Shown: positions 118 through 44,754 of the stretch, in pieces
Numbering within the stretch: the stretch's first letter is position 1
Layout: each line of letters starts with the position of its first letter
Made by a program: the position numbers and the translations under genes
From: an uncultured Clostridium sp.
Lineage (GTDB): Bacteria; Bacillota_I; Bacilli_A; RF39; UBA660
NCBI GenBank assembly: GCA_947427095.1
Contig: CANEGO010000002.1
Location: 99,810-163,809, forward strand
Length of the DNA stretch: 64,000 bases
Reading direction: 5' to 3'
The notes under the pieces: model-generated
The model's database searches: none
Seen by the model: only the letters and a program-made list of their open reading frames with translations
Told to the model about the DNA's origin: nothing

Positions 118-768
118 TTAATTATTTACTAAATCTTTGACGGATTTATCATAATATTGTTCTGGATTGATTACACTACCATTTTTATACATTTCAAAAT
201 GTAGACCTTGTTTTACTTCACTATTTAAAGTACACGTACCACTTTTTGCTATTACTTGTCCTTGAGTTACGTTATCTCCCTTTTTTACCAATACTTCTCC
301 TAAAGATTGATACATAACAATTATTTCATTTGAATTTCTTATTTCAACCGTTTTACCAAGTAAGGTGTCATCGGTTACGTTTGTTACCGTTCCGGTTACT
401 GACGCAACAACATCAAATTGTTCATCTGCTTTATAAGTGATACCAGAATTTTGCATGTATATCCCTTCATGATAAATAATTGAATTTTTTTGTTCTTCTT
501 CGGAAGCATCTTTATCATAAAAATTCTTATAAATGCTTACAGTATCTGCAGTATATGGTTTTACAAATTTTTCTTCCTGGTTTACTACTGGGTAATAACT
601 ATCAAAAATATAATCATTTACGTAAGTAAAATCATCAGTATTTTTTGATACGGTACCTGTTTTACCATCAGTTAAAACAAAAACTGACAATAAACATACA
701 AATAGAAACGTTCCTATAATTGAAACTTTTACAAATGGTTTTAATTTTCTTCTTTTCATTTTTTTCAC
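118..768 (-). CDS. spoIIQ: Membrane-anchored degenerate LytM/M23-domain protein, SpoIIQ-like
   Basis: N-terminal TM helix. The C-terminal M23 fold (..GDNVTQGQVIAKSGT...GLHFEMYKNGSVINP) lacks the catalytic HxxxD and first HxH histidines, as in non-catalytic SpoIIQ. It is adjacent to spoIID and has a GAGAGGTG RBS. Confidence 0.55.
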   Translation of the reverse strand: MKKMKRRKLKPFVKVSIIGTFLFVCLLSVFVLTDGKTGTVSKNTDDFTYVNDYIFDSYYPVVNQEEKFVKPYTADTVSIYKNFYDKDASEEEQKNSIIYHEGIYMQNSGITYKADEQFDVVASVTGTVTNVTDDTLLGKTVEIRNSNEIIVMYQSLGEVLVKKGDNVTQGQVIAKSGTCTLNSEVKQGLHFEMYKNGSVINPEQYYDKSVKDLVNN

Positions 769-812: not shown

Positions 813-1736
813 TTAATTTATTTTTTTTATTTCGCAGTCTTTATAATAATGTTTTAATATGTCTTGGTAATTATAGCCTTCCTTTGCCATTCCGTTTGCA
901 CCATATTGACTCATTCCAACTCCGTGACCATAACCACTAACATTAAAAACCACTTTATCTTCTAAAACATTAATATCAAAACTAGTTGACCTTAGATTAA
1001 AAATAGTTTTGATTTTGCTAGAATCGAAGTTTTTACCATTAATACTTAAACTAATTACCCTTCCAGTATTTGTTTTTTTTATGTTTTCAATTACTATATT
1101 CTCTTTTGTTTCGAGTCCTAAATTAAATAAAAATTCAGCTTTAGAAACTTCACTTTTACTATTAAAAACTGGAGATTCAGTTTTATCCCAAGAAGAAGAA
1201 ACACTTACCAAATATGGTTTTGAAGACGAAAAAACGTTCTCACTATTTTCTGTATAACCATTACTTGTTGAAAAAAACATTGCATCTATTAAGTTATTTT
1301 GATACAAAACAACCTCGCCTTTTGTACCTAACACTGCATTTTTTACTTTTGATAAGTTTTTTTCATAGTTTTCTTGCCATTTTTCCTTCATAATATCGTA
1401 ATTTATATAAACTTGATTTTGAGTACTATCAGTAACATCATAATCATTTTTACTATTTTGCGCGTGATTTAGTGCATATGTTCTAGAAGCAACCGCCTGA
1501 GCTTTCAAAGCTTCATCATTAAATGAAGCAGGCATTTCACCTGCTACAACACCAATTACATATTCTTCTATTGGCACGTTTATTATTTGTCCATCAGCAC
1601 TTTTTTTAACCCTTATTACTTTATTATTATAGCTACCATATTTAATTTTATTTATTATCTCATTAGAATTATTTAATCCAATTATAAATAAAGGAATTAG
1701 TATTATTAATAGTGTAAATAATAAAATTTTTTTCAT
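813..1736 (-). CDS. spoIID: SpoIID/LytB-family lytic transglycosylase (stage II sporulation protein D)
   Basis: Signal anchor followed by the conserved core VIGVVAGEMPASFNDEALKAQAVASRTYAL typical of SpoIID. Confidence 0.8.
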   Translation of the reverse strand: MKKILLFTLLIILIPLFIIGLNNSNEIINKIKYGSYNNKVIRVKKSADGQIINVPIEEYVIGVVAGEMPASFNDEALKAQAVASRTYALNHAQNSKNDYDVTDSTQNQVYINYDIMKEKWQENYEKNLSKVKNAVLGTKGEVVLYQNNLIDAMFFSTSNGYTENSENVFSSSKPYLVSVSSSWDKTESPVFNSKSEVSKAEFLFNLGLETKENIVIENIKKTNTGRVISLSINGKNFDSSKIKTIFNLRSTSFDINVLEDKVVFNVSGYGHGVGMSQYGANGMAKEGYNYQDILKHYYKDCEIKKIN

Positions 1737-12898: not shown

Positions 12899-13276
12899 CT
12901 ATTTTTGAATAAATTCTATATTATTGCCATTAGGGTCATTAATAATAAAGTATTTTTTATTTAAAACCCCTTCTTTTATTAATATATCTTTATCATATAA
13001 ATTATTTTCAATAATATATTTTTTTGCTTTATCTATATTATCCACAGCAAAACCTAAAATTTTATTATCACAACAGGATGGTTTATTGTGAAAACAAGTA
13101 CCATTAAAATGCGATTTCATTTCTAATAATACCTGACCCATTTCTAGAATTATTATTCTTTTATTATCTTTTTTATTACAAATATCATTTACTTTTTCAA
13201 AACCTAGTTTATTATAAAAAAATATACTTTCTTCTACTTTATTAATCCATATATCAACATGATGCAATTCAAACAT
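12899..13276 (-). CDS. VOC/glyoxalase-bleomycin-resistance family protein lying between rpmH and the oriC DnaA boxes
   Basis: FELHHVDIWINKVEESIFFYNKLGF is a typical glyoxalase-I fold N-terminal motif. The first Met of the track ORF was trimmed. Confidence 0.6.
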   Translation of the reverse strand: MFELHHVDIWINKVEESIFFYNKLGFEKVNDICNKKDNKRIIILEMGQVLLEMKSHFNGTCFHNKPSCCDNKILGFAVDNIDKAKKYIIENNLYDKDILIKEGVLNKKYFIINDPNGNNIEFIQK

Positions 13277-13344
13277 ATAAACACCTACCATAATTTAAGT
13301 ATATCATCAGTTTAATTTATAAATATAAATTAAGTCAATATTAT

Positions 13345-13581
13345 TTTTCCACATTTGAGAAAAATAATTTTTTTATTACAAAAAAGATAACCACATACTT
13401 TTCCACAGATTTACACTGTTTTTTTCTATATTTCTTAATAATTACAATAATAATTAACAGTTTGTGGATAACTTTTACATGTTTACTATTTTATTAATAA
13501 TTTATTTTTTGGGGAAAAGTGCATTTTGTCGAAATTTGTTGAAAAATAAGAATTATAATTGTGGAAAACTCTTGTGGAAAA
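13345..13581. promoter_or_regulatory. oriC upstream DnaA-box cluster with the dnaA promoter region (5 boxes)
   Basis: TTTTCCACA at 13345 and 13399, a perfect TGTGGATAA at 13463, and TGTGGAAAA at 13560 and 13573, all immediately upstream of dnaA. Confidence 0.8.
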
Positions 13582-13672: not shown

Positions 13673-15022
13673 ATGAACATAGATAATCTATGGGATAATT
13701 TCCTAGAAAAAATTAAACCAAGAATATCTTCATTATCTTATGATACTTGGTTTAAGAATACAAAACTAGTATCACTAGATAATAATGTTGCAAAAATACT
13801 TGTAGATTCGCCACTTCAAAAGAAAAGTTTACAAGAAACCTGGTATCAAACGATATCCGATGTATTTAGTGAAATAACGAATACAAGTTTCGATTTTGAA
13901 TTTGTTTTTGAAGATGAGGTAAGCATAAATACGAATATTCCTGTGGAAAACATCGGAGTTCCTTTAAATACACCAGAAAAATCAAATCTAAATCCTAAAT
14001 ATACGTTTGATTCTTTTATAACAGGTGATAGTAATAAGTTTGCTTACATGGCTGCGGTTTCAGTTGCAGAAAATCCAGGTAAAACTTATAATCCATTATT
14101 TTTATATGGAAATAGTGGACTAGGTAAAACTCATTTAATGCATGCAATAGGAAACTTTATTATCGAAAATTCAAATAAAAAAGTATTATATGTAACAAGT
14201 GAACAATTTATATCAGATTTTCTTAACCTTAATAAAAAGGATGAAACTGGTACAAATTTTAACTACATAGATAGCTTTAAGAACAAATATCGTGGAGTAG
14301 ACGTACTAATAATTGATGATATTCAGTTTTTAGGAGGCGCTACACAAACACAGCAAGAGTTTTTTAACACTTTTAATAACTTGTATGACGATAATAAACA
14401 AATTATAATCTCATCTGACAGATCACCGGATGACTTAAAAAAATTAGAAGATAGATTAAGAACCAGATTTAATTGGGGTCTTAGTGTAAATATTTATCCA
14501 CCTGATTATGAAATGAGAGTTCAAATTCTTAGAAAAAAAATAATTGGACAAAACATGGATGGTACGATAAATGATGATGTTATTGCTTATATTGCTAATA
14601 ATTGTGAATCGGACGTAAGGCAACTAGAGGGTGCACTAACTAGGGTTATTGCTTATGCAACGATGTTTAATACAAGAGATATTAATTTAACGCTAGCGAT
14701 TGATGCACTAAAAGATTATTTATCAAAATCTTCGTTTACTAAAAATAATATTCAAAAAATTCAGCAAGTTGTATCAGAATATTATAATATAACGGTGGAA
14801 GATTTAAAATCCAAAAAAAGAAAGGCAAGTATAGCGTTTCCAAGGCAAGTAGCGATATATCTATGTAGAACAATGACGGATGAGTCTTTTCCAAAAATTG
14901 GAATACAATTCGGTGGAAGAGACCATTCAACTGTTATACATTCGGTTGATAAAATTGATAATGAAATAAAAACTAATCCTCAATTTAAAACAATAATAGA
15001 TGCATTAAAAAGTAAAATATAA
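13673..15022 (+). CDS. dnaA: Chromosomal replication initiator DnaA
   Basis: Full-length DnaA with the AAA+ Walker A GNSGLGKTHL and the C-terminal DNA-binding domain. A GGAGG RBS is present. Confidence 0.97.
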   Translation: MNIDNLWDNFLEKIKPRISSLSYDTWFKNTKLVSLDNNVAKILVDSPLQKKSLQETWYQTISDVFSEITNTSFDFEFVFEDEVSINTNIPVENIGVPLNTPEKSNLNPKYTFDSFITGDSNKFAYMAAVSVAENPGKTYNPLFLYGNSGLGKTHLMHAIGNFIIENSNKKVLYVTSEQFISDFLNLNKKDETGTNFNYIDSFKNKYRGVDVLIIDDIQFLGGATQTQQEFFNTFNNLYDDNKQIIISSDRSPDDLKKLEDRLRTRFNWGLSVNIYPPDYEMRVQILRKKIIGQNMDGTINDDVIAYIANNCESDVRQLEGALTRVIAYATMFNTRDINLTLAIDALKDYLSKSSFTKNNIQKIQQVVSEYYNITVEDLKSKKRKASIAFPRQVAIYLCRTMTDESFPKIGIQFGGRDHSTVIHSVDKIDNEIKTNPQFKTIIDALKSKI

Positions 15023-15167: not shown

Positions 15168-16289
15168 ATGAAATTTAGTATTAAAAAAGAAGTATTACTT
15201 CAAAGTTTAAATTCTGTTAGCAAAGCTTTATCTAGTAAAAATTTAATTCCAGTTTTATCTGGTATAAAATTTAATTTAACTAATAATGGATTGTTTTTAA
15301 GTGCTAGTGATAATGATATTAGCATTGAATCTTTTATAGATAAAGATCATCTAGATAAAATAGATAATATAGGAAGTACGGTGATTCAAGGAAAATATAT
15401 TTTAGAAATAATTAGAAAATTAGAAGGTAGAGTAGTCAACATCGAATTATTAGATGGAATTAAAGTATTAATTTCTTGTGGAAATTCAGAATTTAACCTA
15501 AATTGTATGGATGCAGCAGAATTTCCTAATTTAAATTTAGAAGAAAAAAAGGAACCAATAATATTAAGAAAAGAAGAATTCAAAAATTTAATATCTAAAA
15601 CATCTTTTGCTGTTTCATCCCAGGAAACAAGACCAATATTAACAGGAATTAATTTTAAAATAAATGAAAATAAATTAGAATGTATAGCAACAGATTCATA
15701 TAGATTAGCTAAAAAGCAAGTTATTTTAAATAACAAGGTAGATGAAGATATAAATATTGTTATTCCTGGTAAAAACTTAATAGAATTGACTAAAATAATA
15801 GAAGATAATGATACAAATATTGAAATGCATGTATTTAATAATAAAGTTTTATTTAAATTTGATAATACTTTATTTCAAACACGTGTTTTAAGTGGAACTT
15901 TTCCTGATGTAAATAGATTAATTCCTGCATCTTTTGAGTTATCAATTAAAACAAATACCAATGAACTTTATAATGTTATTGATAGAGCGTCGTTATTAAC
16001 TAGTGAAAAAGACAAGAATATTATTAAGTTTGAATGTGAAAAAAGCGAAGTTACTGTTTCTTCTAATTCTCCTGAAATAGGTAAAGTAGAAGAGAAGATA
16101 TCAGTAGAAAAAAATAATGATAAAAATATTAAAATAGCGTTTTCTTCAAGGTTTATGATGGATGCAATAAAAACAGTAGAAAGTAAAAACGTAATATTAA
16201 ACTTTAATAATGATGTTCAACCAATAATTGTATTAGATGAAAAAGATGATAGTTTATTACAACTTATTTTACCAATAAAAACATACTAA
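15168..16289 (+). CDS. dnaN: DNA polymerase III beta sliding clamp
   Basis: 373 aa with a three-domain beta-clamp pattern, directly following dnaA. Confidence 0.95.
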   Translation: MKFSIKKEVLLQSLNSVSKALSSKNLIPVLSGIKFNLTNNGLFLSASDNDISIESFIDKDHLDKIDNIGSTVIQGKYILEIIRKLEGRVVNIELLDGIKVLISCGNSEFNLNCMDAAEFPNLNLEEKKEPIILRKEEFKNLISKTSFAVSSQETRPILTGINFKINENKLECIATDSYRLAKKQVILNNKVDEDINIVIPGKNLIELTKIIEDNDTNIEMHVFNNKVLFKFDNTLFQTRVLSGTFPDVNRLIPASFELSIKTNTNELYNVIDRASLLTSEKDKNIIKFECEKSEVTVSSNSPEIGKVEEKISVEKNNDKNIKIAFSSRFMMDAIKTVESKNVILNFNNDVQPIIVLDEKDDSLLQLILPIKTY

Positions 16290-16315
16290 AATTAGCGTTT
16301 GCTAATTTTTTTATT
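16288..16315 (+). terminator. Terminator after dnaN
   Basis: AATTAGC-GTTT-GCTAATT hairpin followed by TTTTTT. Confidence 0.6.
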
Positions 16316-16352
16316 TGTGATATTATAATTAGCATTTAAAGGAGGACAATTT

Positions 16353-17375
16353 ATGCCTAAGATTTTAGTGGCTGATTTATTTGGTACAATAATTCCAAAT
16401 AATATATTGAATGCTAATTATTTATATGTAAACATAGATAAATATAAAGATATTAATGAAATTTGTTATGATAAAAATCAGCATGAGTATTTGATTGAAA
16501 AATTATGTTTACAATGTGCAAATGATTTAAAAAAATTTTTAAACGATGGTAATGAACTTATAATAGCGTCGGATTTATCGGCTCACGAATTAAATTTAAC
16601 TTTTATTTATGAGGAGATTATAGAAAAAATATTAAAGTATTGTAATAAAAATTTTACTTTATATATGGTAACAAAGGGCGGCGCAGCTAGTTTCAACTTA
16701 GAGGTGTTAAAATCTCATATTACTGAAGAATATAGTGAACATGGTATTGATTATATTGTGTTTGAAGGTTATAAAATAGGTCTTATTGATAGAAAGGAAG
16801 ACATATTTAGAGTAGTTGAAAGTAAATTTAACTTACAAGAATGTGAATTATATTCAATTGGAAATGATTACAAAGATATTCCTATGCTTGTTAGATGTAT
16901 TGAGTTAGGTGGAAAAAGTTCTTTATTAAACTATAATTTATATTCTAACGAACTTCTTTCAAGAACTACGTTAGATAAAGCTATATGTGAAAGGATTCAA
17001 AGAGAAAATCATATATTATTAGAAAAAGAGTTGTTAAAAGACCATCCTGGTTTTAGTTTGTTAGATAAGTATAAATATTTAATGGAAAGAAGGCTAACTT
17101 CAGAATATAATAGATGGTATGAAAAAAGAAAAGAGGAGCTTTATCAAGAAGTAAGAAAAGGTAATATTACGTTAGAACAATTAATTAAAGAAAAATTAAT
17201 TTTTGGACTTTGTCAAACTGCTATTAATCATTGTTTAGAAAGGAAAACATTCATCGAAAATAATTTAGATAAAATAGATATGTATTCTACTTTTAGAGAT
17301 TATTATAATAAAGTACTTAATTGTGATTCAAAAGAAGAAATAAAAAAATCACCCGTAAAATTATTAAAACCTTAA
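16353..17375 (+). CDS. HAD-superfamily (Cof-like IIB) protein with a degenerate motif I and a roughly 130-aa charged helical C-terminal extension
   Basis: Motif IV SIGNDYKDIPML is present and motif I reads ILVADLFGTII (DxD changed to DxF). It has its own TATAAT promoter and an AAAGGAGG RBS. Confidence 0.55.
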   Translation: MPKILVADLFGTIIPNNILNANYLYVNIDKYKDINEICYDKNQHEYLIEKLCLQCANDLKKFLNDGNELIIASDLSAHELNLTFIYEEIIEKILKYCNKNFTLYMVTKGGAASFNLEVLKSHITEEYSEHGIDYIVFEGYKIGLIDRKEDIFRVVESKFNLQECELYSIGNDYKDIPMLVRCIELGGKSSLLNYNLYSNELLSRTTLDKAICERIQRENHILLEKELLKDHPGFSLLDKYKYLMERRLTSEYNRWYEKRKEELYQEVRKGNITLEQLIKEKLIFGLCQTAINHCLERKTFIENNLDKIDMYSTFRDYYNKVLNCDSKEEIKKSPVKLLKP

Positions 17376-17407
17376 GAAAAAAGAAGAATTTAATCTTCTT
17401 TTTTTCA
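17376..17407 (+). terminator. Terminator after the HAD-like gene
   Basis: AAAAAAAGAAG-N8-CTTCTTTTTTT hairpin. Confidence 0.55.
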
Positions 17408-17433
17408 TTATCTGACAATTTTTTTAAAAATAC

Positions 17434-17442
17434 TGTGGATAA
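17434..17442. promoter_or_regulatory. Perfect DnaA box (TGTGGATAA) overlapping the predicted -10 region of the comK-like gene
   Basis: Exact reverse complement of TTATCCACA, 33 nt upstream of the start codon. Confidence 0.4.
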
Positions 17443-17474
17443 TATAGTCAAATATTTTTAAAGGAGGGTTTTGT

Positions 17475-17936
17475 ATGAAAAATTATGAAATTAATAGGCA
17501 AACGTTAGCAATAATATCTTGTGGAAAGGAAAAATCAAAAATAATAGAAGAAAATAATGAGTTTTTTATTGATCAATCTTCTACTAAAATAATTGATGAT
17601 AGTTGTAGGTTTTTTGGTAGTTCATACGATGGGAGACTTAATGGGACTAAAAGTATTTTAGGTGTTTCACACAAAGCACCCATTATTATTGAAGAAAGTT
17701 CTGGTATAATATTTTTTCCAACCACATCTCCTAGATTAGATTGTTGTTCATGGATTTCTTTAAACAATATAGAAGAATACTATAAATTATATGGTGATAC
17801 AATAATAAAATTTAGTTGTGGAAAAAAAATAAAGTTAGAATTATCGTATGGAATAATTGATAATCAAATATTAAGAGCAACGAGATTAGAGGCATTAATA
17901 GCAAAAAGAACTTATAATTTAAAAAAAATAGCTTAA
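17475..17936 (+). CDS. comK: ComK-family competence transcription factor homologue (153 aa)
   Basis: DDSCRFFGSSYDGR and HKAPIIIEESSGIIFFPTTS align with B. subtilis ComK DRSCRFFGSSYAGR and HKPPIMVDPSNQIFLFPTLS. An AAAGGAGGG RBS is present. Confidence 0.7.
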   Translation: MKNYEINRQTLAIISCGKEKSKIIEENNEFFIDQSSTKIIDDSCRFFGSSYDGRLNGTKSILGVSHKAPIIIEESSGIIFFPTTSPRLDCCSWISLNNIEEYYKLYGDTIIKFSCGKKIKLELSYGIIDNQILRATRLEALIAKRTYNLKKIA

Positions 17937-18057
17937 AAAGCTGTTTTTTTATTAAATAATGCTAAATAAGCCTCATTTTGTGCTATAATTAGTATGTATG
18001 TAGTAGTATACTGAAAATAGGTGTAGGTGGTTTATATGGGCTTTAAAATACTGAATT

Positions 18058-19170
18058 ATGTTTTTAAAGAATCTTGAATTAAATAATTTTAGAAATGTTT
18101 CTAAAGTTTCTTTTAACTTTGATAAAAAAATAAACATATTTATAGGAAATAATGCCCAAGGAAAAACTAACGTATTAGAAAGTATCTATTTTCTTGCGAT
18201 TACAAGGTCTCATAGAACACACAATGAGCTTAATTTAATAAGAAGTGATGAACTTTATACTAAAGTAGCGGGTGTTTTTGATGATGATATGGATAATACA
18301 CATGCATTATCTATTCTTTTAAATGAAAAAGGTAAGAAAGTTTCGGTTGATAATCTTGTTCAAAAAAGGATAAGTAATTATTTATCAAGACTTAATGTTA
18401 TTATGTTTTGTCCAGACGATTTAGAAATAATTAAAGGATCTCCAAGCATCCGGAGAAAGTTTTTAAATATTGAACTTTCTCAGTTTAGAAATGATTACGT
18501 TTTTAAATTAAAACAATATAATCAAATTCTTAAACAAAGAAATGAATATTTAAAACAAAAGAGTAATGCAAAATTTGATAAGGCATACTTTAACATAATA
18601 ACGGATAATCTTGTCTTAAAAAATATTGAATTAGTAAAGATTAGGTATGATTTTATTAATAAAATAAATAAATATCTAGAAGGCGTATTTAATAATATTG
18701 CAGGATTTGGAAAGCTTGAAATTAAGTATAAAAGTTTTATTCATGAAGAGGACTTAAAAAAAGACAATTTAAAGGACTTTGTAATGAATAAGTATAATTC
18801 CTTATTTATGAGTGAATTGCTTCAGAAAACGACGCTTTTAGGCTGTCATAAGGATGATTTTAAGATGGTTTTAAATGATTTAGACGTAACTGAATTTTGT
18901 TCACAAGGACAACAAAGATTATCAATACTTAGTTTGAAGTTAGCAGAAATTGAGGTATTTATAAAAGAAAAGAATACAAAGCCAATCATTTTACTTGATG
19001 ATATTTTTAGTGAACTTGATGAAATAAAGAAAAATAATATAATTAATTATTTTAAAGAAGATGTTCAAATATTTATTACTACTACTGACATAAAAGATAT
19101 AAATGAGGACTTAAGGAAAAAATCTGATATTTATGTTGTTGAAAATGGAAGCTTTGAAAAGGAGGAATAG
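18058..19170 (+). CDS. recF: DNA replication/repair protein RecF
   Basis: Walker A GNNAQGKTNVLESIYF and an SMC-like ABC signature. Canonical position before gyrB. Confidence 0.95.
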   Translation: MFLKNLELNNFRNVSKVSFNFDKKINIFIGNNAQGKTNVLESIYFLAITRSHRTHNELNLIRSDELYTKVAGVFDDDMDNTHALSILLNEKGKKVSVDNLVQKRISNYLSRLNVIMFCPDDLEIIKGSPSIRRKFLNIELSQFRNDYVFKLKQYNQILKQRNEYLKQKSNAKFDKAYFNIITDNLVLKNIELVKIRYDFINKINKYLEGVFNNIAGFGKLEIKYKSFIHEEDLKKDNLKDFVMNKYNSLFMSELLQKTTLLGCHKDDFKMVLNDLDVTEFCSQGQQRLSILSLKLAEIEVFIKEKNTKPIILLDDIFSELDEIKKNNIINYFKEDVQIFITTTDIKDINEDLRKKSDIYVVENGSFEKEE

Positions 19171-35757: not shown

Positions 35758-36576
35758 ATGAGTGTTAAAGATATTTTAAATAAAAATGGATTTATTTTTA
35801 AGAAAAAGTTTGGTCAAAACTTTTTGCTTGATAATAATATTTTAAATAATATTGCTGATTTAGGTAATATAACAAAAGATACTCTTGTTATAGAGGTTGG
35901 CGTAGGAGCAGCTGCTTTAACTAAAAAATTAAGCCTTAAAGCAAAGCTAGTATTGGGTTATGAGATAGATATAAATTTGAAAAAACCGCTTGATGAAATA
36001 CTTACGGGCTATGAAAATGTTAATATAATTTATGATGACTTTTTGAATCGTGACGTAAAAAAAGATTTAAGTAAGTATGAATACAAAAACATTATAGTAG
36101 TCGCAAATCTTCCGTATTATATAACGACTCCAATAATAACTAAATTTATTGAAGAAAAAATAAACGTAGAAAAGATAGTAGTTATGGTGCAAAACGAGGT
36201 GGCTGACCGATTTTGTGCAAAAACTGGAACTAAATCATATAACTCTTTAACTATTTTTTTGAATTATTATTTTGATATTAAAAAGGCTTTTACCGTTTCA
36301 AGAAATGTATTTTATCCAAAACCAAACGTTGATTCTGCTGTTGTAGTTTTTACAAAAAAAGAGAAAAAATTAAAGTTAAATGATGAAGCCTATTTCTTTA
36401 GACTTGTAAAAGCAGCATTTACTCAAAAAAGAAAAACTTTGAAAAATAACTTATCAGACTACGACTTAGATAAAATTAATGAGGTATTAAAAATATCAGG
36501 TAAAGATATAACTAAAAGAGCAGAATGTATTACAATAGAAGAATTTGCTAAAATTTCAAACGAATTAACCAGATGA
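35758..36576 (+). CDS. rsmA: 16S rRNA (adenine1518/1519-N6)-dimethyltransferase RsmA/KsgA
   Basis: The ATG is preceded by AAGAGGAG; the track ORF starts upstream at a TTG. Motifs FGQNFL and ..VVANLPYYITTPII... Confidence 0.9.
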   Translation: MSVKDILNKNGFIFKKKFGQNFLLDNNILNNIADLGNITKDTLVIEVGVGAAALTKKLSLKAKLVLGYEIDINLKKPLDEILTGYENVNIIYDDFLNRDVKKDLSKYEYKNIIVVANLPYYITTPIITKFIEEKINVEKIVVMVQNEVADRFCAKTGTKSYNSLTIFLNYYFDIKKAFTVSRNVFYPKPNVDSAVVVFTKKEKKLKLNDEAYFFRLVKAAFTQKRKTLKNNLSDYDLDKINEVLKISGKDITKRAECITIEEFAKISNELTR

Positions 36577-36617
36577 TAGAATGTCTGGTTTTTTCTTTGC
36601 ATATATTTTATTGGGTG

Positions 36618-37370
36618 ATGATATTGTTTAAAGTAGGAGATTTAGTCACTAGGATATCACATGATAATGATGTTGTATTTAAGATAGAAAAAATTGATTC
36701 AGGAATTGCTTATTTGAAGGGTGTAAATGTAAGACTGTGCGCCGATAGCAGTGTAAGTGACCTAATTTTGGTTGATTCAAAGAATAATGAAGAAGACCGA
36801 ATATTTTACGAAAAATTAGAGACGATAAGGAATTTTGAAAGAAGTGATTATTTTTATATTCCTGGTAAAATTCTACATGTGGATGGGGATAGAGAATATT
36901 TAAATAGGTGTTTAGATTTTTATAAAAAAGCTAATGTTTTGGCTTTTGGAGTTTACTCACCGGAAAGTGAAATGGCACAAAATATCGAAAAGTATTTAGA
37001 TGATATTAACCCTGATATTGTTGTTATAACTGGTCATGATTCGGAAATAAAAAAGAACTCAAAGTATTTTTCAGAAGCTGTAAAGGCTTGCCGTAAGTAC
37101 CAAAGGGATTATGATAAATTAATAATAATTGCTGGTGCTTGTCAATCGGATTATGAACACCTTATAAAAGCGGGAGCCAATTTCGCGTCAAGCCCAAAGA
37201 GGATAAACATTCATGCGCTTGATCCTGCAATTATTGCTTTATCCCTAAGTCTGTCTGATAAAAATAAAAATGTTGATTTACTAGCGCTTTTAGAAAAAAC
37301 GAGCAACGGTAAGGACGGTATTGGTGGTGTTAATACAAGGGGTGTTATGACTACCGGGTATCCTAGGTAA
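36618..37370 (+). CDS. yabG: Sporulation-specific protease YabG
   Basis: PGKILHVDGD, IVVITGHD and IIAGACQSDYEHLIKAGANFASSPKRINIHALDP align closely with B. subtilis YabG. The position between ksgA and veg is conserved. The start was chosen at MILFKVGDLV; the track ORF begins at 36573. Confidence 0.75.
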   Translation: MILFKVGDLVTRISHDNDVVFKIEKIDSGIAYLKGVNVRLCADSSVSDLILVDSKNNEEDRIFYEKLETIRNFERSDYFYIPGKILHVDGDREYLNRCLDFYKKANVLAFGVYSPESEMAQNIEKYLDDINPDIVVITGHDSEIKKNSKYFSEAVKACRKYQRDYDKLIIIAGACQSDYEHLIKAGANFASSPKRINIHALDPAIIALSLSLSDKNKNVDLLALLEKTSNGKDGIGGVNTRGVMTTGYPR

Positions 37371-37586: not shown

Positions 37587-37675
37587 TATATGAACTTTTT
37601 TATTTGTGTTTATTGATTTTTATCCCCATTTGTGGTTAAATTAAAATGTATAAACTAAAATGGGAGGACTATACT

Positions 37676-40600
37676 ATGAACATGGCAAAGTCGAATATTA
37701 AAAGCAGATTAAGTGATTGGTTTCTTATTCAGAGAATTAGAATAACTAATTTTATGAAGGAACATAAGTATGTTTCGGCGTTTATTGGTGTTTTTTTAAT
37801 GTCTTCCTTAATTGCTTTCATAGTTTACGCGGTTGATGCAAACAAGTATGATGGTCAGGTTTCAGTTACGGCTAAAGTTGAGCAAAAAAACGTATCTTCA
37901 AGCGAGGAAATTACACATATTAAAAGCTTTAGCAACATCATATATGATATATCATATGGATTATCAATATCAGACTTACCTGCCAACGAAACGGTTGTAA
38001 GGGAAAAAGTAATAATTGAAGCAGAATTTAACGAAGGTATTGATGCTGAATGGATATTCCAGGACGAGGATGCAACTTATGAATTGTCAGAAGATAAAAG
38101 AAAGTTAACGGTAACTATTTATCAAACTAAGGTTGGGGAACTTAACAGCAAGCAATTGTATTTAAAAGCAAAAAATATACAAAATGGAACAGTTATAAAT
38201 ACGAATATTAGAATAAAGGAATCTACCGCCGCAGATTTTACTGATTTAGGTCAAAAAAGTGTAGTAATAGAAAGTGAAAAAGTTGATTTAACTACTAAAA
38301 TAATATCTGGCACAGCTTATAAATCTTCTGACTATCAAGAAGGACGATTAGCTCCTTTTGGTATATTAGTTGGATTTGATAAAAGTAATCTTAAAACAGA
38401 GAATAAAGATAGTTTAGAGGGGCTTTATTTTGATCCTAATTTGAGTTTAATATTAGAAGCAACTCAGACTGTAAATGGAGTTAATTCTCAAATAGAATTA
38501 AAAAATGATAGTAATAAATTTTTTGGATTATATGATAAAGGATCTAATTTATTGCCATTGATGCCACATCATATAAATAATTATCAATATTATTCAGTAT
38601 ATAATTCCGGTAAGGTTACAAACTTAATCAAGTCAAAAAGTGGGGTTTCCGGTGTTGTTACTGAAAATAAAAATCCAGATTTATATTTAATAGGTGATAA
38701 AACCATGAATTTAGAGCTTGGAGAAAAATACGAAGAATATGGTGTGTCAACAACAAATGGTGGTTCAGCTATTTGCAAAACAAGCAGTTCTTCCTGCACC
38801 CGTGTTATAAAAGATAAAGATGGAAATGAAATCGCTGATAATGACGTTACCAAATCGGTTGGTAATTATATTGTTAGCTATGAATATAATACGGCAAGTG
38901 GTGTTACTAAGGTTAACAGAAATATCAAAGTTGCTGAAAAAACAACGGCTACTTTAAATGATGATGTGTATGAACTAAACGGTAATAAAATCATTACTTT
39001 AGTAAAAGGTACAGCTTATTCTGAAAGTGGAATAATAAAAAATGGTGCTAAATATTATAATTATGAAAGTATCATAACAAAAGATGGAGATGTTATTGAA
39101 AAAATAGACGCAACCATAGTTGGTACCTATGTAATAACTTATAAAATTACTGATGCTACTAGTCAGACGCCAGAAACTGGTGAAGAGACCCTGGCAGAGG
39201 AATCTACCATTAAAGAAGTTTCGTTAACAAGGACGGTTAAAGTAGTTGAAGGCTTGGAGTATTTGAAAGCACAAACGATTACTTCCAGCACTATTTATGC
39301 TCCGTCAGATGGTTCATTTACTAACCCTTTAATAAATCTTGATGGCAAGGATATAGAATGTACAAGCGATAGTGGATGTGAGGTTAAATATTATGATCCA
39401 ATTAGTAAAAAAGAAACAACTATTGATAAACAAAAAGCTGGAACATATAATGCTATATATAAAATAACCGATAAAAATGGATTTGAACTACAAACGGGAA
39501 ATGTTATTAATATTCAAACTAAATATGATTTTAATATAGAGGGAATAAAATCTGATGGAACTATTAATTTATATGGAGACGATTTTGTTGCATTAGGTTC
39601 TTATTTTGTAAATGCGGCATCTCCTAGAGCTCTTGAAGCAAGTGGTGATATTGCAGTTAATCTAAGAATTGGTGATGTAGTATCAGAAAATGTTATTAAT
39701 AAAGTTTATTCGGCAGGAACGAAAACTAATCATTTAACATTTAATACCGATACCTCTGGAATGTTAACAGAGTTGCCAAATGACACTTATTTAGCTTATG
39801 GTGAAGAAGTTATTTTAAGATCGGTATTTAATTATTCTAGTGATGGCGATGATAATATTGGAACTTTAACAACTAGGATTCCGATTGGTACGGCTGTTTC
39901 ATCAGCAAATAATCCGACCGCTCCGTTTACTATGGTTGAGTATAATAATAGTGTGGAGAATGGTGAACCCTATTACGTAAATGAGGAATTAAAAGATAAA
40001 GTAAAAGTTAGCTATTATGCATGTGAAATGGAAGAATCTAAGACAACCTGTATTAGTGAAACCGGAGCAACTTATGAAACTTTTGATACATTAAATGACG
40101 CTTTGAAGAAAAATGATAAATTAAGATTAGCTTATTTAACATACGTGGTTAATGACGTAAGACCTGGCTCTGAAATTGATTTTAGGATTAGATTAGTTGC
40201 TAACGTTGGAAATCATGATGGAGTACTTACAATGACATCAACATCTACATTTGATGAAAAGCAAGAAAATGGAACTAGTCAAAGTAAAAATATATCTGAT
40301 AATAGTACTATAAACGTTACCGCGTTTAAGGCAAGGACTAAAGTGTTTATTGGTAATAGTGAACAAGACGTCATAATAAATGCCGCTAATGTAAATAGCT
40401 CAACGTGGACTATTTATCCGACAATAAGTTTACCAGCAGAGTTAGTAAATACTAATATAGCGGCTATAGATGAACTTTCTAATATTACAATCGTTGTTAC
40501 TTTGCCTGATGGAATTAATTATTTATATAATGAAAATTATGATATTCCTTCAGTAAGTAATAATGGCAAAACCCTAACTTATGTTTTAAAGGGGAAACAC

Positions 40601-42250
40601 GTTAATGAGTGGATTGATCCGATAACGTTTGAGGCTAGTTATGATATAGATATTCCTTCTGGAACAAGAAAGGAAGTTAACGTTTTAATACAAGCAACGT
40701 CAACCAGTGGAATATCTGATGCATCTAGTAAAAACTTAAGAACAACAACGAGAGCAGTGACATATCAAAATAACGAAGTAATAACATATGCACAGTATAC
40801 TCCATATACAGCAATATCTAAAGAGACAAGTTTTAATGTAAGCACTAAATTATACAATAATGATAGTAAAGAAGTAACGCATTCAAATTTAGATATTGTA
40901 ACGCTACTTCCGTATAATGATGTAAGTAACGAAAAAAATAAATATACAGGCACATATACTATATCTAATTTACCTAAGGGAGCTTTATGTACAACTAGTA
41001 TTCCATCCGTAATAAGTGACTCTAAAAAACTTTTATCTGGTGATGAAATAACATGGGAAGATTGTTCTAAATATCAATCTGAGAACTATGTTGGCATTAC
41101 GGCCATTAGGGTTAATGGTATAAGTCTTGCTGCTAGAAAAACTTATGAACAAAGTATAACAATTAATCCAATAGGTAATAAAACAGATGATTCATATCAA
41201 ATTAATTCGTATTTAATCATGGATTCTGATGGTAAAAGGATTGTAAAAAATATTAAAGCTTTAAATATTGATGTTATTAGTAAAAGAATAACTGGTACGG
41301 TTTGGGAAGACTTTGACGCCAACGGTATTATGGATGCACAAGAAAAAAAGGTGTCAGGGGTTACTTTAAAATTATACAATGCGGAAACTGACGAACTTGT
41401 AAAAACTACTACTTCTGATGAAAAGGGTAAATATAGTTTATCTGATTTGATTCCGGGCACCTATTATGTAGTGGCAGAGTATAATACGGCAAAATATGGT
41501 TTATCACCATATCAAGTAACACTAGATAAATCTGTTAGTTCCTCGTTTAATGCAACTAAGGTTAACGAAGATAATATTGACTCTAAAAATAGTAATACAA
41601 AAGATGATATAGTATCTTCCGAATCGACAAAAGAAGATGTAGAATGCACTGGTGATGAGTGTACAGATCTTGACCCCTCTGATAAACTGGAAGAAACTCA
41701 GCCTGTTATTAGGACCGAAAATATAGAAATAAATAGTAATACTAGAATGGTTAGTAATGTTAATCTTGGTCTTGCACTTAGAAAGACATATTCTGTTAAA
41801 TTGACAAAGTATGTAACAAAGGCAATTACGACTAATAATCTTGGTGTATCAACAATAAAAGATTATGGTAATGTTTCTTTGGCAAAATTGGACGTAAAGG
41901 ATATAAATAATTTAGGTATTAAGGTTGTTTATACTTTAGAATTAGAAAATACTGGTTATTATCCTGGTTATATTTATTCTGTGAAGGATTATATTCCAGA
42001 TGGGATGAAGTTTAATGAAAATTATGAAGAAAATAAAGGTTGGGTAATGACTGAATATGGTTATTTGGAAAATAACACTTTATTTGATCAGTTGGTTGCT
42101 GGGGGAGAAAAGAAATATCTTACAGTCGCCTTTGATATCGTAAGAAAAGAAGCTGGCTCTTTTGTTAACTATGCGGCAGTGGATGATGAAGATTTACAAA
42201 TTTTAGTTGTTGCTGGAAATGAAGGAGAAGAAGGTGATAGTAATGAATAA
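37676..42250 (+). CDS. Giant N-terminally membrane-anchored surface protein (about 1525 aa) with a C-terminal CnaB/SdrD-B-type domain and a DUF11 domain
   Basis: Start set at the ATG 8 nt after GGGAGG; the track starts at 37646. A TM helix (VSAFIGVFLMSSLIAFIVYAV) follows a short cytoplasmic tail. ITGTVWEDFDANGIMDAQEKKVSGVTLKLYNAETDELVKTTTSDEKGKYSLSDLIPGTYYV is a classic CnaB/SdrD B repeat. The terminal VVYTLELENTGYYPGYIYSVKDYIPDGMKF is DUF11-like. There is no C-terminal sorting signal. Confidence 0.7.
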   Translation: MNMAKSNIKSRLSDWFLIQRIRITNFMKEHKYVSAFIGVFLMSSLIAFIVYAVDANKYDGQVSVTAKVEQKNVSSSEEITHIKSFSNIIYDISYGLSISDLPANETVVREKVIIEAEFNEGIDAEWIFQDEDATYELSEDKRKLTVTIYQTKVGELNSKQLYLKAKNIQNGTVINTNIRIKESTAADFTDLGQKSVVIESEKVDLTTKIISGTAYKSSDYQEGRLAPFGILVGFDKSNLKTENKDSLEGLYFDPNLSLILEATQTVNGVNSQIELKNDSNKFFGLYDKGSNLLPLMPHHINNYQYYSVYNSGKVTNLIKSKSGVSGVVTENKNPDLYLIGDKTMNLELGEKYEEYGVSTTNGGSAICKTSSSSCTRVIKDKDGNEIADNDVTKSVGNYIVSYEYNTASGVTKVNRNIKVAEKTTATLNDDVYELNGNKIITLVKGTAYSESGIIKNGAKYYNYESIITKDGDVIEKIDATIVGTYVITYKITDATSQTPETGEETLAEESTIKEVSLTRTVKVVEGLEYLKAQTITSSTIYAPSDGSFTNPLINLDGKDIECTSDSGCEVKYYDPISKKETTIDKQKAGTYNAIYKITDKNGFELQTGNVINIQTKYDFNIEGIKSDGTINLYGDDFVALGSYFVNAASPRALEASGDIAVNLRIGDVVSENVINKVYSAGTKTNHLTFNTDTSGMLTELPNDTYLAYGEEVILRSVFNYSSDGDDNIGTLTTRIPIGTAVSSANNPTAPFTMVEYNNSVENGEPYYVNEELKDKVKVSYYACEMEESKTTCISETGATYETFDTLNDALKKNDKLRLAYLTYVVNDVRPGSEIDFRIRLVANVGNHDGVLTMTSTSTFDEKQENGTSQSKNISDNSTINVTAFKARTKVFIGNSEQDVIINAANVNSSTWTIYPTISLPAELVNTNIAAIDELSNITIVVTLPDGINYLYNENYDIPSVSNNGKTLTYVLKGKHVNEWIDPITFEASYDIDIPSGTRKEVNVLIQATSTSGISDASSKNLRTTTRAVTYQNNEVITYAQYTPYTAISKETSFNVSTKLYNNDSKEVTHSNLDIVTLLPYNDVSNEKNKYTGTYTISNLPKGALCTTSIPSVISDSKKLLSGDEITWEDCSKYQSENYVGITAIRVNGISLAARKTYEQSITINPIGNKTDDSYQINSYLIMDSDGKRIVKNIKALNIDVISKRITGTVWEDFDANGIMDAQEKKVSGVTLKLYNAETDELVKTTTSDEKGKYSLSDLIPGTYYVVAEYNTAKYGLSPYQVTLDKSVSSSFNATKVNEDNIDSKNSNTKDDIVSSESTKEDVECTGDECTDLDPSDKLEETQPVIRTENIEINSNTRMVSNVNLGLALRKTYSVKLTKYVTKAITTNNLGVSTIKDYGNVSLAKLDVKDINNLGIKVVYTLELENTGYYPGYIYSVKDYIPDGMKFNENYEENKGWVMTEYGYLENNTLFDQLVAGGEKKYLTVAFDIVRKEAGSFVNYAAVDDEDLQILVVAGNEGEEGDSNE

Positions 42251-44372: not shown

Positions 44373-44393
44373 CAATAGGTTGCTATTTTTTTT
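44363..44393 (+). terminator. Terminator after the adhesin pair
   Basis: AATAGCAA-TAGG-TTGCTATT hairpin plus T8; it begins at the stop codon. Confidence 0.65.
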
Positions 44394-44445
44394 AATAATG
44401 TGGTAAAATTATATTGTTTAATAATCAACTAAAAGGAGTGTTCAT

Positions 44446-44703
44446 ATGGAAATAACTAGTGTGTCAGTTCAAAAAGAAACTAAGGAAAATTCCAGAATGA
44501 TAGGTTATGCAGAAATAGTTTTTGACGATTGCCTAAAGGTTAATGGAATTAGAATAATAAGGGGAAACTCAAAAATTTTTGCGGCCATGCCAAATAAAAA
44601 GTTACAAGACGGGAAATATAAAGACTATGTTCATCCAATTAATGCCGAACTAAGAAAGAAAATAGATGATGCGATTGAGGAAGCCTATAACAAGGCAGAA
44701 TAA
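44446..44703 (+). CDS. spoVG: Septation/sporulation protein SpoVG
   Basis: MEITSVSVQKETKENSRMIGYAEIVFDDCLKVNGIRII... is the canonical SpoVG sequence. Confidence 0.9.
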   Translation: MEITSVSVQKETKENSRMIGYAEIVFDDCLKVNGIRIIRGNSKIFAAMPNKKLQDGKYKDYVHPINAELRKKIDDAIEEAYNKAE

Positions 44704-44754
44704 TATGCTATCATATTTTTCTTTTTTTTTAATATAATTTATCAGGAGGTAGTT

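What the first reader, a model, noticed from the sequence alone, without database searches (positions are those of the whole stretch)
16290..18057. dnaN-recF interval carries a degenerate HAD protein and a ComK-family regulator with a DnaA box on its promoter
In Bacillus the dnaN-recF gap holds only the small S4-like yaaA/rlbA gene. Here it holds two separately terminated genes, each with its own promoter. The first is a Cof-like HAD protein whose catalytic motif I is DLFGT (DxD changed to DxF, so probably a non-phosphatase) and which carries a long charged helical tail. The second is a clear ComK homologue with the DxSCRFFGSSY signature. A perfect DnaA box (TGTGGATAA, 17434-17442) overlaps the comK-like -10 region, and the gene sits immediately upstream of recF, itself a competence recombination gene. 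ComK regulators are rarely characterised outside Bacilli. An origin-linked copy under DnaA control would couple competence-like gene expression to replication initiation status.
Basis: partly seen in the sequence, partly recalled or inferred. Interest (0 to 1): 0.6.

Follow-up and report, generated by a model that had tools for sequence, protein, structure and literature searches.

The report
Origin-anchored ComK gene with DnaA box
Next to the replication origin of an uncultured gut bacterium (order RF39) lies a short homologue of the Bacillus competence regulator ComK, kept at that spot across the order, with a conserved binding site for the replication initiator DnaA in its promoter; the enzyme-like gene beside it is a clade-specific add-on.

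Summary
Between dnaN and recF lie a 340-aa protein (X) and a 153-aa ComK-family protein (Pfam E=9e-44). A perfect DnaA box sits at 17434-17442.

New context changes the picture:
- dnaA-dnaN-comK-recF-gyrB is conserved in about 70 metagenomic loci, even where DnaA is only 43-60% identical. Named members belong to GTDB order RF39.
- X occurs only in a small subclade. Other genomes carry unrelated genes in the same slot, and distant X relatives lie elsewhere. X is accessory cargo, not a ComK partner.
- The DnaA box is perfect in 12 of 17 distinct promoters of the near clade, within TTGACA-N20-GATAAT. More distant RF39 promoters instead carry TTCGACA repeats (Spo0A-box sequence) phased at exactly 10 bp.
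- The ComK lacks the Bacillus C-terminal activation and MecA-degron region. Its model resembles LytTR DNA-binding domains.

DnaA control is plausible but unproven: there is only one box. Competence machinery could not be checked. This is a new variant of a known kind, of moderate interest.

The parts
15168..16289 (+). dnaN (sliding clamp), the left border of the interval
   Evidence: ORF. Orthologues in the related loci carry DNA_pol3_beta domains.
16288..16316 (+). dnaN terminator-like hairpin (AAAATTAGC-GTTT-GCTAATTTT) with a T-run
   Evidence: dG -7.0 kcal/mol, z -4.25.
16299..16326 (+). Promoter of X: -35 TTGCTA, 16-bp spacer, extended -10 TGTGaTATTAT. The RBS AGGAGG is at 16340-16345.
   Evidence: (9 of 12 matches, TG present) and the sequence.
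16353..17375 (+). X, a 340-aa divergent HAD-fold protein. Motif I is D8-L-F-G-T12, motif III is K148, and motif IV is G170-N-x3-D175. It has a conserved helical C-terminal domain ending IDMYSTFRDYYNKVL. It is clade-restricted cargo.
17376..17405 (+). X terminator hairpin (AAGAAGA-ATTTAA-TCTTCTT with flanking A and T runs)
   Evidence: dG -10.8 kcal/mol, z -3.4. The same hairpin is kept in L016, which lacks X.
17412..17443 (+). Conserved comK promoter block: -35-like CTGACA (17412-17417), a 20-bp AT-rich spacer, and -10 GATAAT (17438-17443). There are no indels across 17 distinct promoters.
17434..17442 (-). Perfect DnaA box TTATCCACA (TGTGGATAA on the + strand). It overlaps the -10 element by 5 bp.
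17475..17936 (+). Short-form ComK-family transcription factor, 153 aa. The RBS GGAGG is at 17463-17467.
17925..17950 (+). comK terminator-like hairpin with a T-run
   Evidence: dG -7.3 kcal/mol, z -2.5.
17979..17989 (+). recF promoter with an extended -10 (TGTGcTATAAT), conserved in both near and far clades
18058..19170 (+). recF, the right border of the interval. It is followed directly by gyrB and gyrA.

Best explanation
The interval holds two unrelated things.

(1) A short-form ComK gene fixed at the origin. It encodes a 153-aa ComK-family DNA-binding transcription factor. Its predicted structure is a LytTR-like beta fold followed by a long C-terminal helix. The gene is a fixed resident of the dnaN-recF gap throughout the uncultured gut and digester order RF39, which belongs to class Bacilli. 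It occupies the slot where Bacillus has yaaA/rlbA.

The gene has its own promoter and terminator. In the window's clade the promoter is unusual: a TTGACA-like hexamer lies 20 bp from GATAAT, and a consensus DnaA box overlaps the -10 element.

The most likely mechanism has two parts, both inferred. First, DnaA bound at this box occludes or remodels the -10 region, so comK transcription follows DnaA activity. Second, the position about 2 kb from oriC adds gene-dosage coupling to replication. This resembles sda in B. subtilis and comCDE at the pneumococcal origin.

In more distant RF39 lineages the same gene is fronted instead by 2-3 TTCGACA direct repeats, phased at exactly 10 bp. TTCGACA is the Spo0A 0A-box sequence. 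So across the order the gene appears to be wired to master cell-cycle or developmental regulators.

By homology, the ComK product most likely controls DNA-uptake and recombination (K-state-like) genes. It lacks the Bacillus C-terminal activation and MecA-degron segment, so its control must differ from the Bacillus model, and perhaps the sign of its action does too.

(2) X, an accessory gene. X was inserted between the dnaN terminator and the comK promoter in one subclade. It encodes a HAD-fold protein from a small family, about 60 clusters among 1.84 billion representatives. The nucleophile Asp, Thr, Lys and distal Asp are conserved, but the D+2 residue is always hydrophobic. A conserved helical C-terminal domain follows. 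X is probably an active enzyme with non-canonical HAD chemistry. Nothing ties it to ComK.

Shown: the gene identities, the synteny, the conservation of the box and promoter, the HAD fold, and the patchy distribution of X.

Inferred: DnaA binding and its effect, the ComK regulon, and X activity.
For: ComK identity:
- Pfam match E=8.9e-44 over the full model.

Synteny:
- About 70 of 80 metagenomic loci, plus L001-L017, have dnaA-dnaN-comK-recF-gyrB. This holds with DnaA identity down to 43% and RecF identity down to 34%.
- Named members are Ca. Aphodocola (CAG-594) and Ca. Faecenecus (CAG-988). Both are GTDB order RF39.

DnaA box:
- The box is exact, with 7 in the window against 0.82 expected.
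- It is the only intergenic perfect box outside the two oriC clusters.
- 95% of near-clade comK upstream regions carry a box with at most one mismatch. The background is 0.17 per 120 bp.
- The box keeps a fixed register with GATAAT.

Far clade:
- Exact TTCGACA occurs 0.96 times per 120 bp upstream of comK, against 0.01 in the background.
- 29 of 53 promoters have at least two copies, spaced exactly 10 bp (25 cases) or 20 bp (11 cases) apart.
- TGTCGAA is the 0A box (PMC3485338).
- Spo0A~P binds B. subtilis PcomK directly (PMC3297582).
- The window encodes SpoIID (above the equivalog cut-off) and has SpoIIQ-, YabG- and SigH-like hits.

Gene-dosage precedent: comCDE and comAB lie near the pneumococcal oriC (PMC5034851).

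X:
- Invariant D8, G11, T12, K148, G170 and D175.
- 63 relatives at E<=1e-3 in 1.84e9 representatives.
- X-lacking sister genomes exist. L063 and L004 have almost identical comK promoters but differ in X. L016 keeps X's terminator without X.
- Other cargo occupies the same slot in other genomes.
- Distant X homologues lie elsewhere.
Against: - There is only one DnaA box and no cluster. In B. subtilis, only the 8 strongest multi-box regions among 269 in-vitro DnaA sites are occupied in vivo (PMC4447404).
- The spacer and the -35-like element are about as conserved as the box. Conservation therefore cannot be assigned to DnaA specifically.
- Five of 17 near-clade promoters carry substitutions in the box (TGAGGATAA, TGTAGATAA, TGATGATAA). 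One of them changes the critical A7 position.
- The box is absent from the more distant RF39 promoters.
- No late competence genes lie in the 64-kb window. The rest of the genome could not be examined.
- There is no K-box enrichment and no K-box pair in the comK upstream region.
- The protein lacks the C-terminal 25 aa needed for activation at comG in B. subtilis (PMC3128618).
- The TTCGACA repeats might instead be ComK autoregulatory sites, because LytTR-type folds bind direct repeats.
Confidence: 0.6

Rival explanations
1. The 9-mer is a promoter element that merely looks like a DnaA box. In this reading the TG(T)G stretch acts as a -16/extended -10 motif abutting GATAAT. Alternatively, the 9-mer is a weak orphan box that DnaA does not occupy in vivo. 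Either way comK is an ordinary sigma-A gene, perhaps needing an activator because of its 20-bp spacer, and only its chromosomal position links it to replication.
For: - The neighbouring recF and X promoters of the same genome use TGTGnTATAAT-type extended -10 elements.
- The first TG of the box is invariant, whereas positions 3-4 vary in 5 of 17 promoters.
- The whole promoter block is equally conserved.
- There is a single box only. Single boxes are rarely occupied in vivo in B. subtilis (PMC4447404).
Against: - The TGTG abuts GATAAT without the usual 1-nt gap, so it is out of register for a canonical extended -10.
- A full 9-of-9 match is kept in 12 of 17 promoters. The chance expectation is about 0.001 per 99 bp.
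- It is the only perfect intergenic box outside oriC in 7 kb of intergenic DNA.
Confidence: 0.35
2. The RF39 ComK-family protein is not a competence activator. It is a repurposed short-form DNA-binding protein, either a repressor or a nucleoid/origin-associated factor, acting in DNA replication or repair. Its strict linkage to dnaN/recF or to ligA/pcrA would reflect that role.
For: - Synteny with replication and repair genes is order-wide.
- The non-origin copies sit beside ligA and pcrA.
- The protein lacks the C-terminal region required for activation in B. subtilis. The comparable short ComK2 of B. cereus lowers comG expression (PMC3128618).
- No com genes were seen in the window.
Against: - The core ComK domain is complete and well conserved, including SCxFFGSSxxGR and FFPTxSPR.
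- The gene has its own promoter and terminator, so it is not in an operon with dnaN or recF.
- Origin-proximal placement of competence regulators has a known rationale (PMC5034851).
- There is no direct evidence for an origin function.
Confidence: 0.25
3. X and ComK form a functional module, for example with X as an anti-ComK adaptor or a signal-processing enzyme that controls ComK.
For: X is adjacent to comK and on the same strand in every close X-bearing locus (window, L001, L004, L007, L009, L010).
Against: - Most genomes with origin-linked comK lack X, including sister genomes with near-identical promoters (L063 against L004).
- The slot holds unrelated genes elsewhere.
- The nearest outgroup and more distant X homologues are not next to comK or dnaN.
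- X has a separate promoter and terminator.
Confidence: 0.07
4. X is a catalytically dead HAD pseudoenzyme that acts only as a scaffold through its helical tail.
For: - The second Asp of motif I is missing.
- In the window's subclade the first acidic residue of motif IV is Asn, giving GN(D/S/T)xxD.
- The Pfam HAD score is below threshold.
Against: - The nucleophile D8, T12, K148 and D175 are invariant down to 23% identity, and H78 is nearly invariant. This argues for a selected active site.
- Active HAD members without Asp+2 exist. Examples are the L-2-haloacid dehalogenases (DxYGT), phosphonatase and the P-type ATPases (DKTGT). This comes from established knowledge and was not tested here.
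Confidence: 0.25

Closest known systems
Bacillus subtilis ComK (PF06338), master regulator of the K-state
   Same: It belongs to the same Pfam family with a full-length domain match. Identity is 39% over about 145 residues. The signature SCRFFGSSY is the same. Both are stand-alone genes with their own promoter. In both lineages the comK promoter carries sites for a master regulator: Spo0A in B. subtilis, and 0A-box-like repeats in distant RF39.
   Different: - It is 153 aa against 192 aa. It lacks the C-terminal FMLYPK...MecA/ClpCP degron and the activation segment.
- It has a fixed position between dnaN and recF next to oriC.
- Its promoter has a DnaA box and a 20-bp spacer, and no AAAAN5TTTT K-boxes.
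- Its regulon is unknown.
Short-form paralogue ComK2 of Bacillus cereus (S. aureus also has a ComK2, but its length was not checked)
   Same: B. cereus ComK2 lacks the C-terminal 22 aa of B. subtilis ComK (PMC3128618), as the RF39 protein lacks about 35 aa. Such a truncated form can have a modulatory or repressive role.
   Different: The Bacillus and Staphylococcus ComK2 proteins are second copies beside a ComK1. Here no longer copy was seen in the window. Whether the genome has a second copy elsewhere is unknown.
Streptococcus pneumoniae comCDE and comAB at oriC (gene-dosage induction of competence under replication stress)
   Different: The regulator family and circuit differ, and no quorum-sensing peptide is seen here. 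The RF39 promoter additionally carries a direct DnaA box. Nothing has been tested experimentally.
DnaA-regulated promoters of B. subtilis (dnaA, sda, ywlC, yydA)
   Same: A consensus TTATCCACA box overlaps core promoter elements, in the origin-proximal neighbourhood.
   Different: The B. subtilis targets bound in vivo have clusters of many boxes. Here there is a single box.
HAD superfamily: Cof-type (IIB) sugar phosphatases such as BT4131 (1ymq), SupH (2hf2) and TM0651 (1nf2), and L-2-haloacid dehalogenases
   Different: - There is no Asp at +2 anywhere in the family.
- In the window's clade the first acidic residue of motif IV is Asn.
- X has an extra conserved helical C-terminal domain of about 135 aa ending YPTFxDYxxKVL.
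- No Pfam or NCBIfam model reaches its threshold.
The yaaA (rlbA) slot of the Bacillus and Staphylococcus dnaA-dnaN-yaaA-recF-gyrB-gyrA cluster
   Same: The chromosomal slot and the flanking genes are the same.
   Different: The occupant is a ComK-family regulator, with variable cargo beside it, rather than the S4-domain protein.

Membership tests
ComK family (PF06338) | Full-length match to the family profile above the curated threshold | tested here: met
   E=8.9e-44, 149.3 bits against a cut-off of 22.3. Residues 2-146 align to model positions 2-151 of 152.
ComK family (PF06338) | Conserved core motifs (SCxFFGSSxxGR and FFPTxSPR) | tested here: met
   These motifs are invariant in 25 RF39 homologues and aligned with B. 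subtilis ComK.
Bacillus-type ComK (functional master regulator) | C-terminal segment with the MecA/ClpCP degron (FMLYPK...) that is required for transcription activation | tested here: not met
   The alignment ends at B. subtilis residue 157 and the protein stops 8 residues later. The degron and activation region are described in PMC8138137 and PMC3128618.
Bacillus-type ComK (functional master regulator) | K-boxes (paired AAAAN5TTTT) in its own promoter and in late com promoters | tested here: not met
   no site in 17376-17474. The window has 32 sites against 30.8 expected. The site at 17935 is the comK terminator. Late com promoters were not available.
Bacillus-type ComK (functional master regulator) | The genome encodes the DNA-uptake machinery (comG, comE, comF, dprA, ssbB) under ComK control | not testable with these tools
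   None lie in the 64-kb window.
HAD superfamily | Rossmannoid HAD core fold | tested here: met
   [not shown]
HAD superfamily | Motif I, DxDx(T/V), with both Asp residues | tested here: not met
   the motif is D8-L-(F/I/L/Y/M/C)-G-T12. The second Asp is absent in all 23 aligned family members.
HAD superfamily | Motif II Ser/Thr, motif III Lys, and the acidic pair of motif IV | tested here: inconclusive
   K148 and D175 are invariant, and position 73 is S/T in most members. The first acidic residue of motif IV is Asp in distant members but Asn171 in the window's clade. The assignments rest on the alignment and the model, not on a superposition of active sites.
HAD superfamily | Sequence-profile match above the Pfam threshold | tested here: not met
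   PF00702 scores 15.5 bits against a cut-off of 26.4. There was no NCBIfam hit.
DnaA-regulated promoter | Consensus DnaA box positioned on core promoter elements | tested here: met
   a 9-of-9 box overlaps the conserved GATAAT.
DnaA-regulated promoter | Evolutionary conservation of the box | tested here: met
   the box is perfect in 12 of 17 near-clade promoters and within one mismatch in 16 of 17. It is absent in the far clade.
DnaA-regulated promoter | A cluster of several boxes, as in B. subtilis regions bound in vivo | tested here: not met
   a single box. The only other recurrent near-match (+45) lies in coding sequence.
DnaA-regulated promoter | DnaA binding and DnaA-dependent expression | not testable with these tools
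   This requires EMSA, ChIP or reporter assays.
LytTR-type DNA-binding fold | Structural similarity of the ComK model to solved LytTR domains | tested here: met
   [not shown]

The most novel reading that the evidence does not exclude
Across order RF39, a ComK-family regulator is hard-wired to the replication origin, and its promoter is read by the cell's master cell-cycle or developmental regulators. These are DnaA in the CAG-433-like clade and Spo0A (or ComK itself) through 10-bp-phased TTCGACA arrays elsewhere. Entry into a competence or K-state-like programme would then be set directly by replication-initiation status and origin copy number. That would be a convergent counterpart of pneumococcal comCDE at oriC and of the B. 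subtilis DnaA-sda checkpoint.
Probability: 0.25. Interest if true: 0.7.

Novelty: new variant of a known kind. Interest (0 to 1): 0.5.

Why it matters
RF39 is an abundant, uncultured order of human and animal gut bacteria with reduced genomes. Almost nothing is known about its gene exchange or cell-cycle control.

A ComK homologue locked between dnaN and recF in every sampled lineage points to a testable idea. Its promoter carries either a DnaA box or phased 0A-box-like repeats. Competence-like differentiation may therefore be coupled to replication status by chromosomal position plus direct initiator binding. So far that logic has been shown only for gene dosage in streptococci.

The case also gives a natural pair of promoter designs (DnaA box against TTCGACA array) for the same gene. 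It adds a short-form ComK lacking the MecA degron, and the ComK fold appears LytTR-like.

The HAD-like protein defines a small unannotated family with an unusual, conserved motif I.

Tried and rejected
- K-box test. AAAAN5TTTT occurs at chance frequency in this 29% GC window (32 sites against 30.8 expected). The only hit near recF is the comK terminator. The test was rejected as uninformative.
- Sigma-H promoter reading of TG(A/T)GGATAAT. No conserved GAAT -10 element lies at the right distance (inspection). Rejected.
- Standard sigma-70 scan. It does not call the comK promoter, because the spacing is 20 bp.
- Search of the window for com machinery. Pfam was run on 30 further ORFs and none was found. 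The window instead holds housekeeping, sporulation (spoIID, spoIIQ-like, yabG, sigH-like) and surface-protein genes.
- Literature searches. ComK+dnaN+recF, RF39+competence, ComK+DnaA and Aphodocola were tried. None gave a prior description of origin-linked ComK or of competence in RF39.
- Sequence search of the PDB with the ComK and X profiles. Nothing significant was found.
- X-ComK functional pairing. Rejected on distribution.
- DnaA-box cluster around comK. None was found.
- Paralogues of comK or X in the window. None was found.
- Compositional anomaly of X. There is none: X is 24% GC, against 23-25% for dnaN, comK and recF.
- Unused resources. The third homologous-protein search was not used, because no query could be tied to this genome.
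Full report
**1. What is at the coordinates**

The ORF map gives, in order:
- rpmH-rnpA-yidC-jag on the minus strand
- dnaA (13673-15022)
- dnaN (15168-16289)
- a 340-aa ORF, here called X (16353-17375)
- a 153-aa ORF (17475-17936)
- recF (18058-19170)
- gyrB and gyrA

The 153-aa protein is a full-length ComK-family member. It matches PF06338 with E=8.9e-44 and aligns to 151 of 152 model positions. It contains DDSCRFFGSSYDGR.

X gives only a sub-threshold HAD match (E=0.023) and no NCBIfam match.

The 9-mer TGTGGATAA at 17434-17442 is a perfect DnaA box. The window has seven perfect boxes against 0.82 expected from shuffles.
- Three of the seven lie inside distant coding regions.
- One lies inside a glyoxalase-like ORF (12899-13291) next to oriC.
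- Within about 7 kb of intergenic DNA, the only perfect boxes are the dnaA-upstream cluster, the dnaA-dnaN cluster and this one.

AT-rich hairpins with T-runs follow dnaN, X and comK. X has a TTGCTA-16-TGTGaTATTAT promoter.

**2. The ComK gene is an order-wide fixture of the origin region**

The ComK protein has more than 1000 relatives of about 150 aa. Context was looked up for P0076, P0026 and P0015. A metagenome scan returned 80 more loci. All loci were then screened by tblastn with the window's DnaA, DnaN, X, ComK, RecF and GyrB.

About 70 loci have dnaA-dnaN-comK-recF-gyrB. This includes loci whose DnaA is only 43-60% identical and whose RecF is 34-50% identical to the window's.

Named cluster members are:
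- Candidatus Aphodocola / Clostridium sp. CAG:594
- Candidatus Faecenecus / Bacillus sp. CAG:988

Both are assigned to GTDB order RF39 (PMC8035907). The window's DnaA is 92-95% identical to those of the Aphodocola-like 'near clade'.

About nine loci carry comK away from dnaN and recF. Where examined, these copies sit next to ligA, in a pcrA-ligA-comK-gatCAB arrangement.

No paper in the searchable library describes this arrangement or competence in RF39.

**3. X is clade-restricted cargo**

A word-indexed search found only 12 relatives of X in 5.8 billion proteins. An exhaustive profile search found 63 among 1.84 billion representatives. Only two GTDB species genomes have it.

All close relatives of X (43-97% identity) lie between dnaN and comK. 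Several facts argue against a link to ComK:
- Most near-clade genomes lack X.
- L063 and L004 have almost identical comK promoters but differ in the presence of X.
- L016 lacks X yet keeps X's terminator hairpin, which suggests deletion.
- In other genomes the same slot holds unrelated genes: a 230-aa protein in L026, a 202-aa P-loop protein on the other strand in L095, and ORFs of 129 and 172 aa in L061 and L033.
- More distant X homologues (P0149, P0151, P0152) are not at the origin.

A functional X-ComK pairing is therefore rejected.

**4. What X is**

The model (pLDDT 76.9, pTM 0.78) has an alpha/beta core up to about residue 200 and then five helices. Residues 201-340 are 36% charged.

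A 23-member alignment down to 23% identity shows:
- Invariant D8, G11, T12, K148, G170, D175, M178 and G186.
- Nearly invariant H78.
- A conserved C-terminal YPTFxDYxxKVL.

The D+2 position is F, I, L, Y, M or C in every member and never Asp. The window's subclade also has Asn instead of Asp at the first motif IV position.

So X is a HAD-fold protein with a selected, non-canonical active site. It is not a decaying phosphatase. From general knowledge, active HADs without Asp+2 exist: dehalogenases (DxYGT), phosphonatase and P-type ATPases (DKTGT). Its substrate is unknown.

**5. The comK promoter**

Seventeen distinct near-clade promoters align without a single indel over the block TTGACA-like / AT-rich spacer / TGTGGATAAT. 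The -35-like hexamer is 20 bp from GATAAT, so the sigma-70 scan does not call this promoter.

The DnaA box is perfect in 12 of the 17 promoters. The variants are:
- TGAGGATAA in L001 and L016
- TGTAGATAA in L020 and L028
- TGATGATAA in L027

A box with at most one mismatch is found in 95% of near-clade upstream regions. The background is 0.17 per 120 bp.

The spacer is about as conserved as the box, and there is no second conserved box.

In B. subtilis, only the eight strongest multi-box regions among 269 in-vitro DnaA sites are occupied in vivo (PMC4447404). DnaA regulation is thus plausible but unproven. I put it at roughly even odds. If DnaA binds, overlap with the -10 element predicts repression or remodelling.

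**6. A different promoter design in distant RF39**

Far-clade promoters lack the DnaA box. They carry TTCGACA 0.96 times per 120 bp against 0.01 in the background. Twenty-nine of 53 have at least two copies on the coding strand, spaced exactly 10 bp (25 cases) or 20 bp (11 cases) apart.

TTCGACA is the reverse complement of the Spo0A 0A-box core TGTCGAA (PMC3485338). Spo0A~P binds the B. subtilis comK promoter directly, including at a box that overlaps the -35 element (PMC3297582).

The window encodes SpoIID (above the equivalog cut-off) and has SpoIIQ-, YabG- and SigH-like hits. A Spo0A-bearing spore-former is therefore plausible.

The alternative is that these repeats are ComK autoregulatory sites, which fits point 7 below. 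The window itself keeps one degenerate copy (CTGACA). It has an exact TGTCGAA only in oriC (13527) and inside rpiB.

**7. What kind of ComK**

BLASTP against B. subtilis ComK gives 39% identity over residues 1-145, aligned to residues 9-157.

The RF39 proteins end about 35 residues earlier than B. subtilis ComK. They therefore lack two things:
- the FMLYPK... MecA/ClpCP degron (PMC8138137)
- the C-terminal 25 aa needed for activation at comG (PMC3128618)

In this they resemble B. cereus ComK2, which lowers comG expression.

**8. Mechanism and comparison with known systems**

The best-supported reading is as follows. A short-form ComK-family transcription factor is anchored next to oriC across RF39. 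Its transcription depends on master regulators, and its dosage follows origin copy number.

The nearest functional analogies are:
- pneumococcal comCDE and comAB at oriC (PMC5034851)
- DnaA-controlled sda and dnaA in B. subtilis

In B. subtilis only an indirect DnaA-Rok link and Rok repression of comK are described (PMC11841835).

**9. Verdict**

- The 'degenerate HAD' is a conserved-variant HAD enzyme family and is unrelated cargo.
- The ComK gene is the interesting part, for its order-wide origin anchoring and its alternative promoter designs.
- DnaA control and a competence function both remain hypotheses.

Novelty: a new variant of a known kind. Interest: about 0.5.

Noticed in passing
window 17976-18077 (recF leader); the same region in L001, L004, L008, L009, L011, L014, L016, L018-L021, L029 and L063: The recF leader is strongly conserved. 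It has three parts:
- an extended -10 promoter, TGTGcTATAAT (17979-17989);
- a near-palindromic GTATGTAGTAGTATAC at the predicted 5' end (17996-18011), which is GTATAGGAGTAC in the far clade;
- in the near clade only, a strong RBS plus a 13-16-codon uORF (18036-18077, MGFKILNYVFKES).

The uORF starts 22 nt before the recF ATG and ends about 20 nt after it. recF itself has no Shine-Dalgarno sequence in this clade. Far-clade loci have a normal SD and no uORF. This suggests translational coupling or leader-peptide control of recF.
   Followed up: partly
L032-L097 (far-clade RF39 loci), 50-110 bp upstream of comK: These promoters carry two or three direct repeats of TTCGACA, the Spo0A 0A-box sequence, spaced exactly 10 or 20 bp apart. 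The motif is about 100-fold enriched over the background. Degenerate 10-bp-phased versions also precede the ligA-linked comK copies. Whether they are Spo0A sites or ComK autoregulatory sites is unresolved.
   Followed up: partly
[not shown]
   Followed up: partly
L078 3995-4453, L055 4001-4459 and L084 3992-4441: A second conserved location exists for ComK-family genes in related metagenomic lineages, directly beside NAD-dependent DNA ligase ligA. The arrangements are pcrA-ligA / comK / gatCAB, or with rmuC nearby. It is unknown whether these are paralogues in genomes that also have the origin copy.
   Followed up: partly
L026 3208-3900, L095 3362-3970 (-), L061 3457-3846 and L033 280-798: The dnaN-comK spacer is a variable slot. 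Four other unrelated ORFs (230, 202, 129 and 172 aa) occupy it in different RF39 genomes. They were not annotated further.
   Followed up: no
window 118-768 (-), 813-1736 (-), 36573-37370 (+) and 46815-47429 (+): Sporulation-type genes occur in a genome related to RF39, which is usually regarded as reduced:
- SpoIID (TIGR02870, 318 bits against a cut-off of 235)
- a SpoIIQ-like M23 peptidase
- the YabG peptidase
- a SigH-like sigma factor at the canonical rlmB-sigH-secE/nusG position

   Followed up: partly
window 13527-13533: An exact Spo0A-box core, TGTCGAA, lies inside the DnaA-box cluster upstream of dnaA. It is one of only two exact matches in the window. An exact 0A box lies within 400 bp upstream of dnaA in 42% of near-clade loci and 20% of far-clade loci. 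This is reminiscent of the 0A boxes in B. subtilis oriC.
   Followed up: no
window 37646-44372: Two very large adjacent ORFs (1534 and 721 aa) carry SdrD_B, SpaA and Ig-like surface domains. They are followed by a 1.3-kb stretch without ORFs of 100 aa or more (44373-45702). They are probably cell-wall-anchored adhesin or pilin-like proteins.
   Followed up: no
L009 (CAYOWI010000005.1): The GTDB representative contig closest to the window (DnaN 100% identical, X 97%) is deposited as 'uncultured Muribaculaceae bacterium'. That is a Bacteroidota label and is inconsistent with its Bacilli-type dnaA-dnaN-comK-recF region and with its relatives. The record's taxonomy is probably wrong. In addition, its ComK is only 81% and its RecF 83% identical to the window's, although its DnaA, DnaN and X are 97-100% identical. 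This suggests a recombination breakpoint near comK.
   Followed up: no
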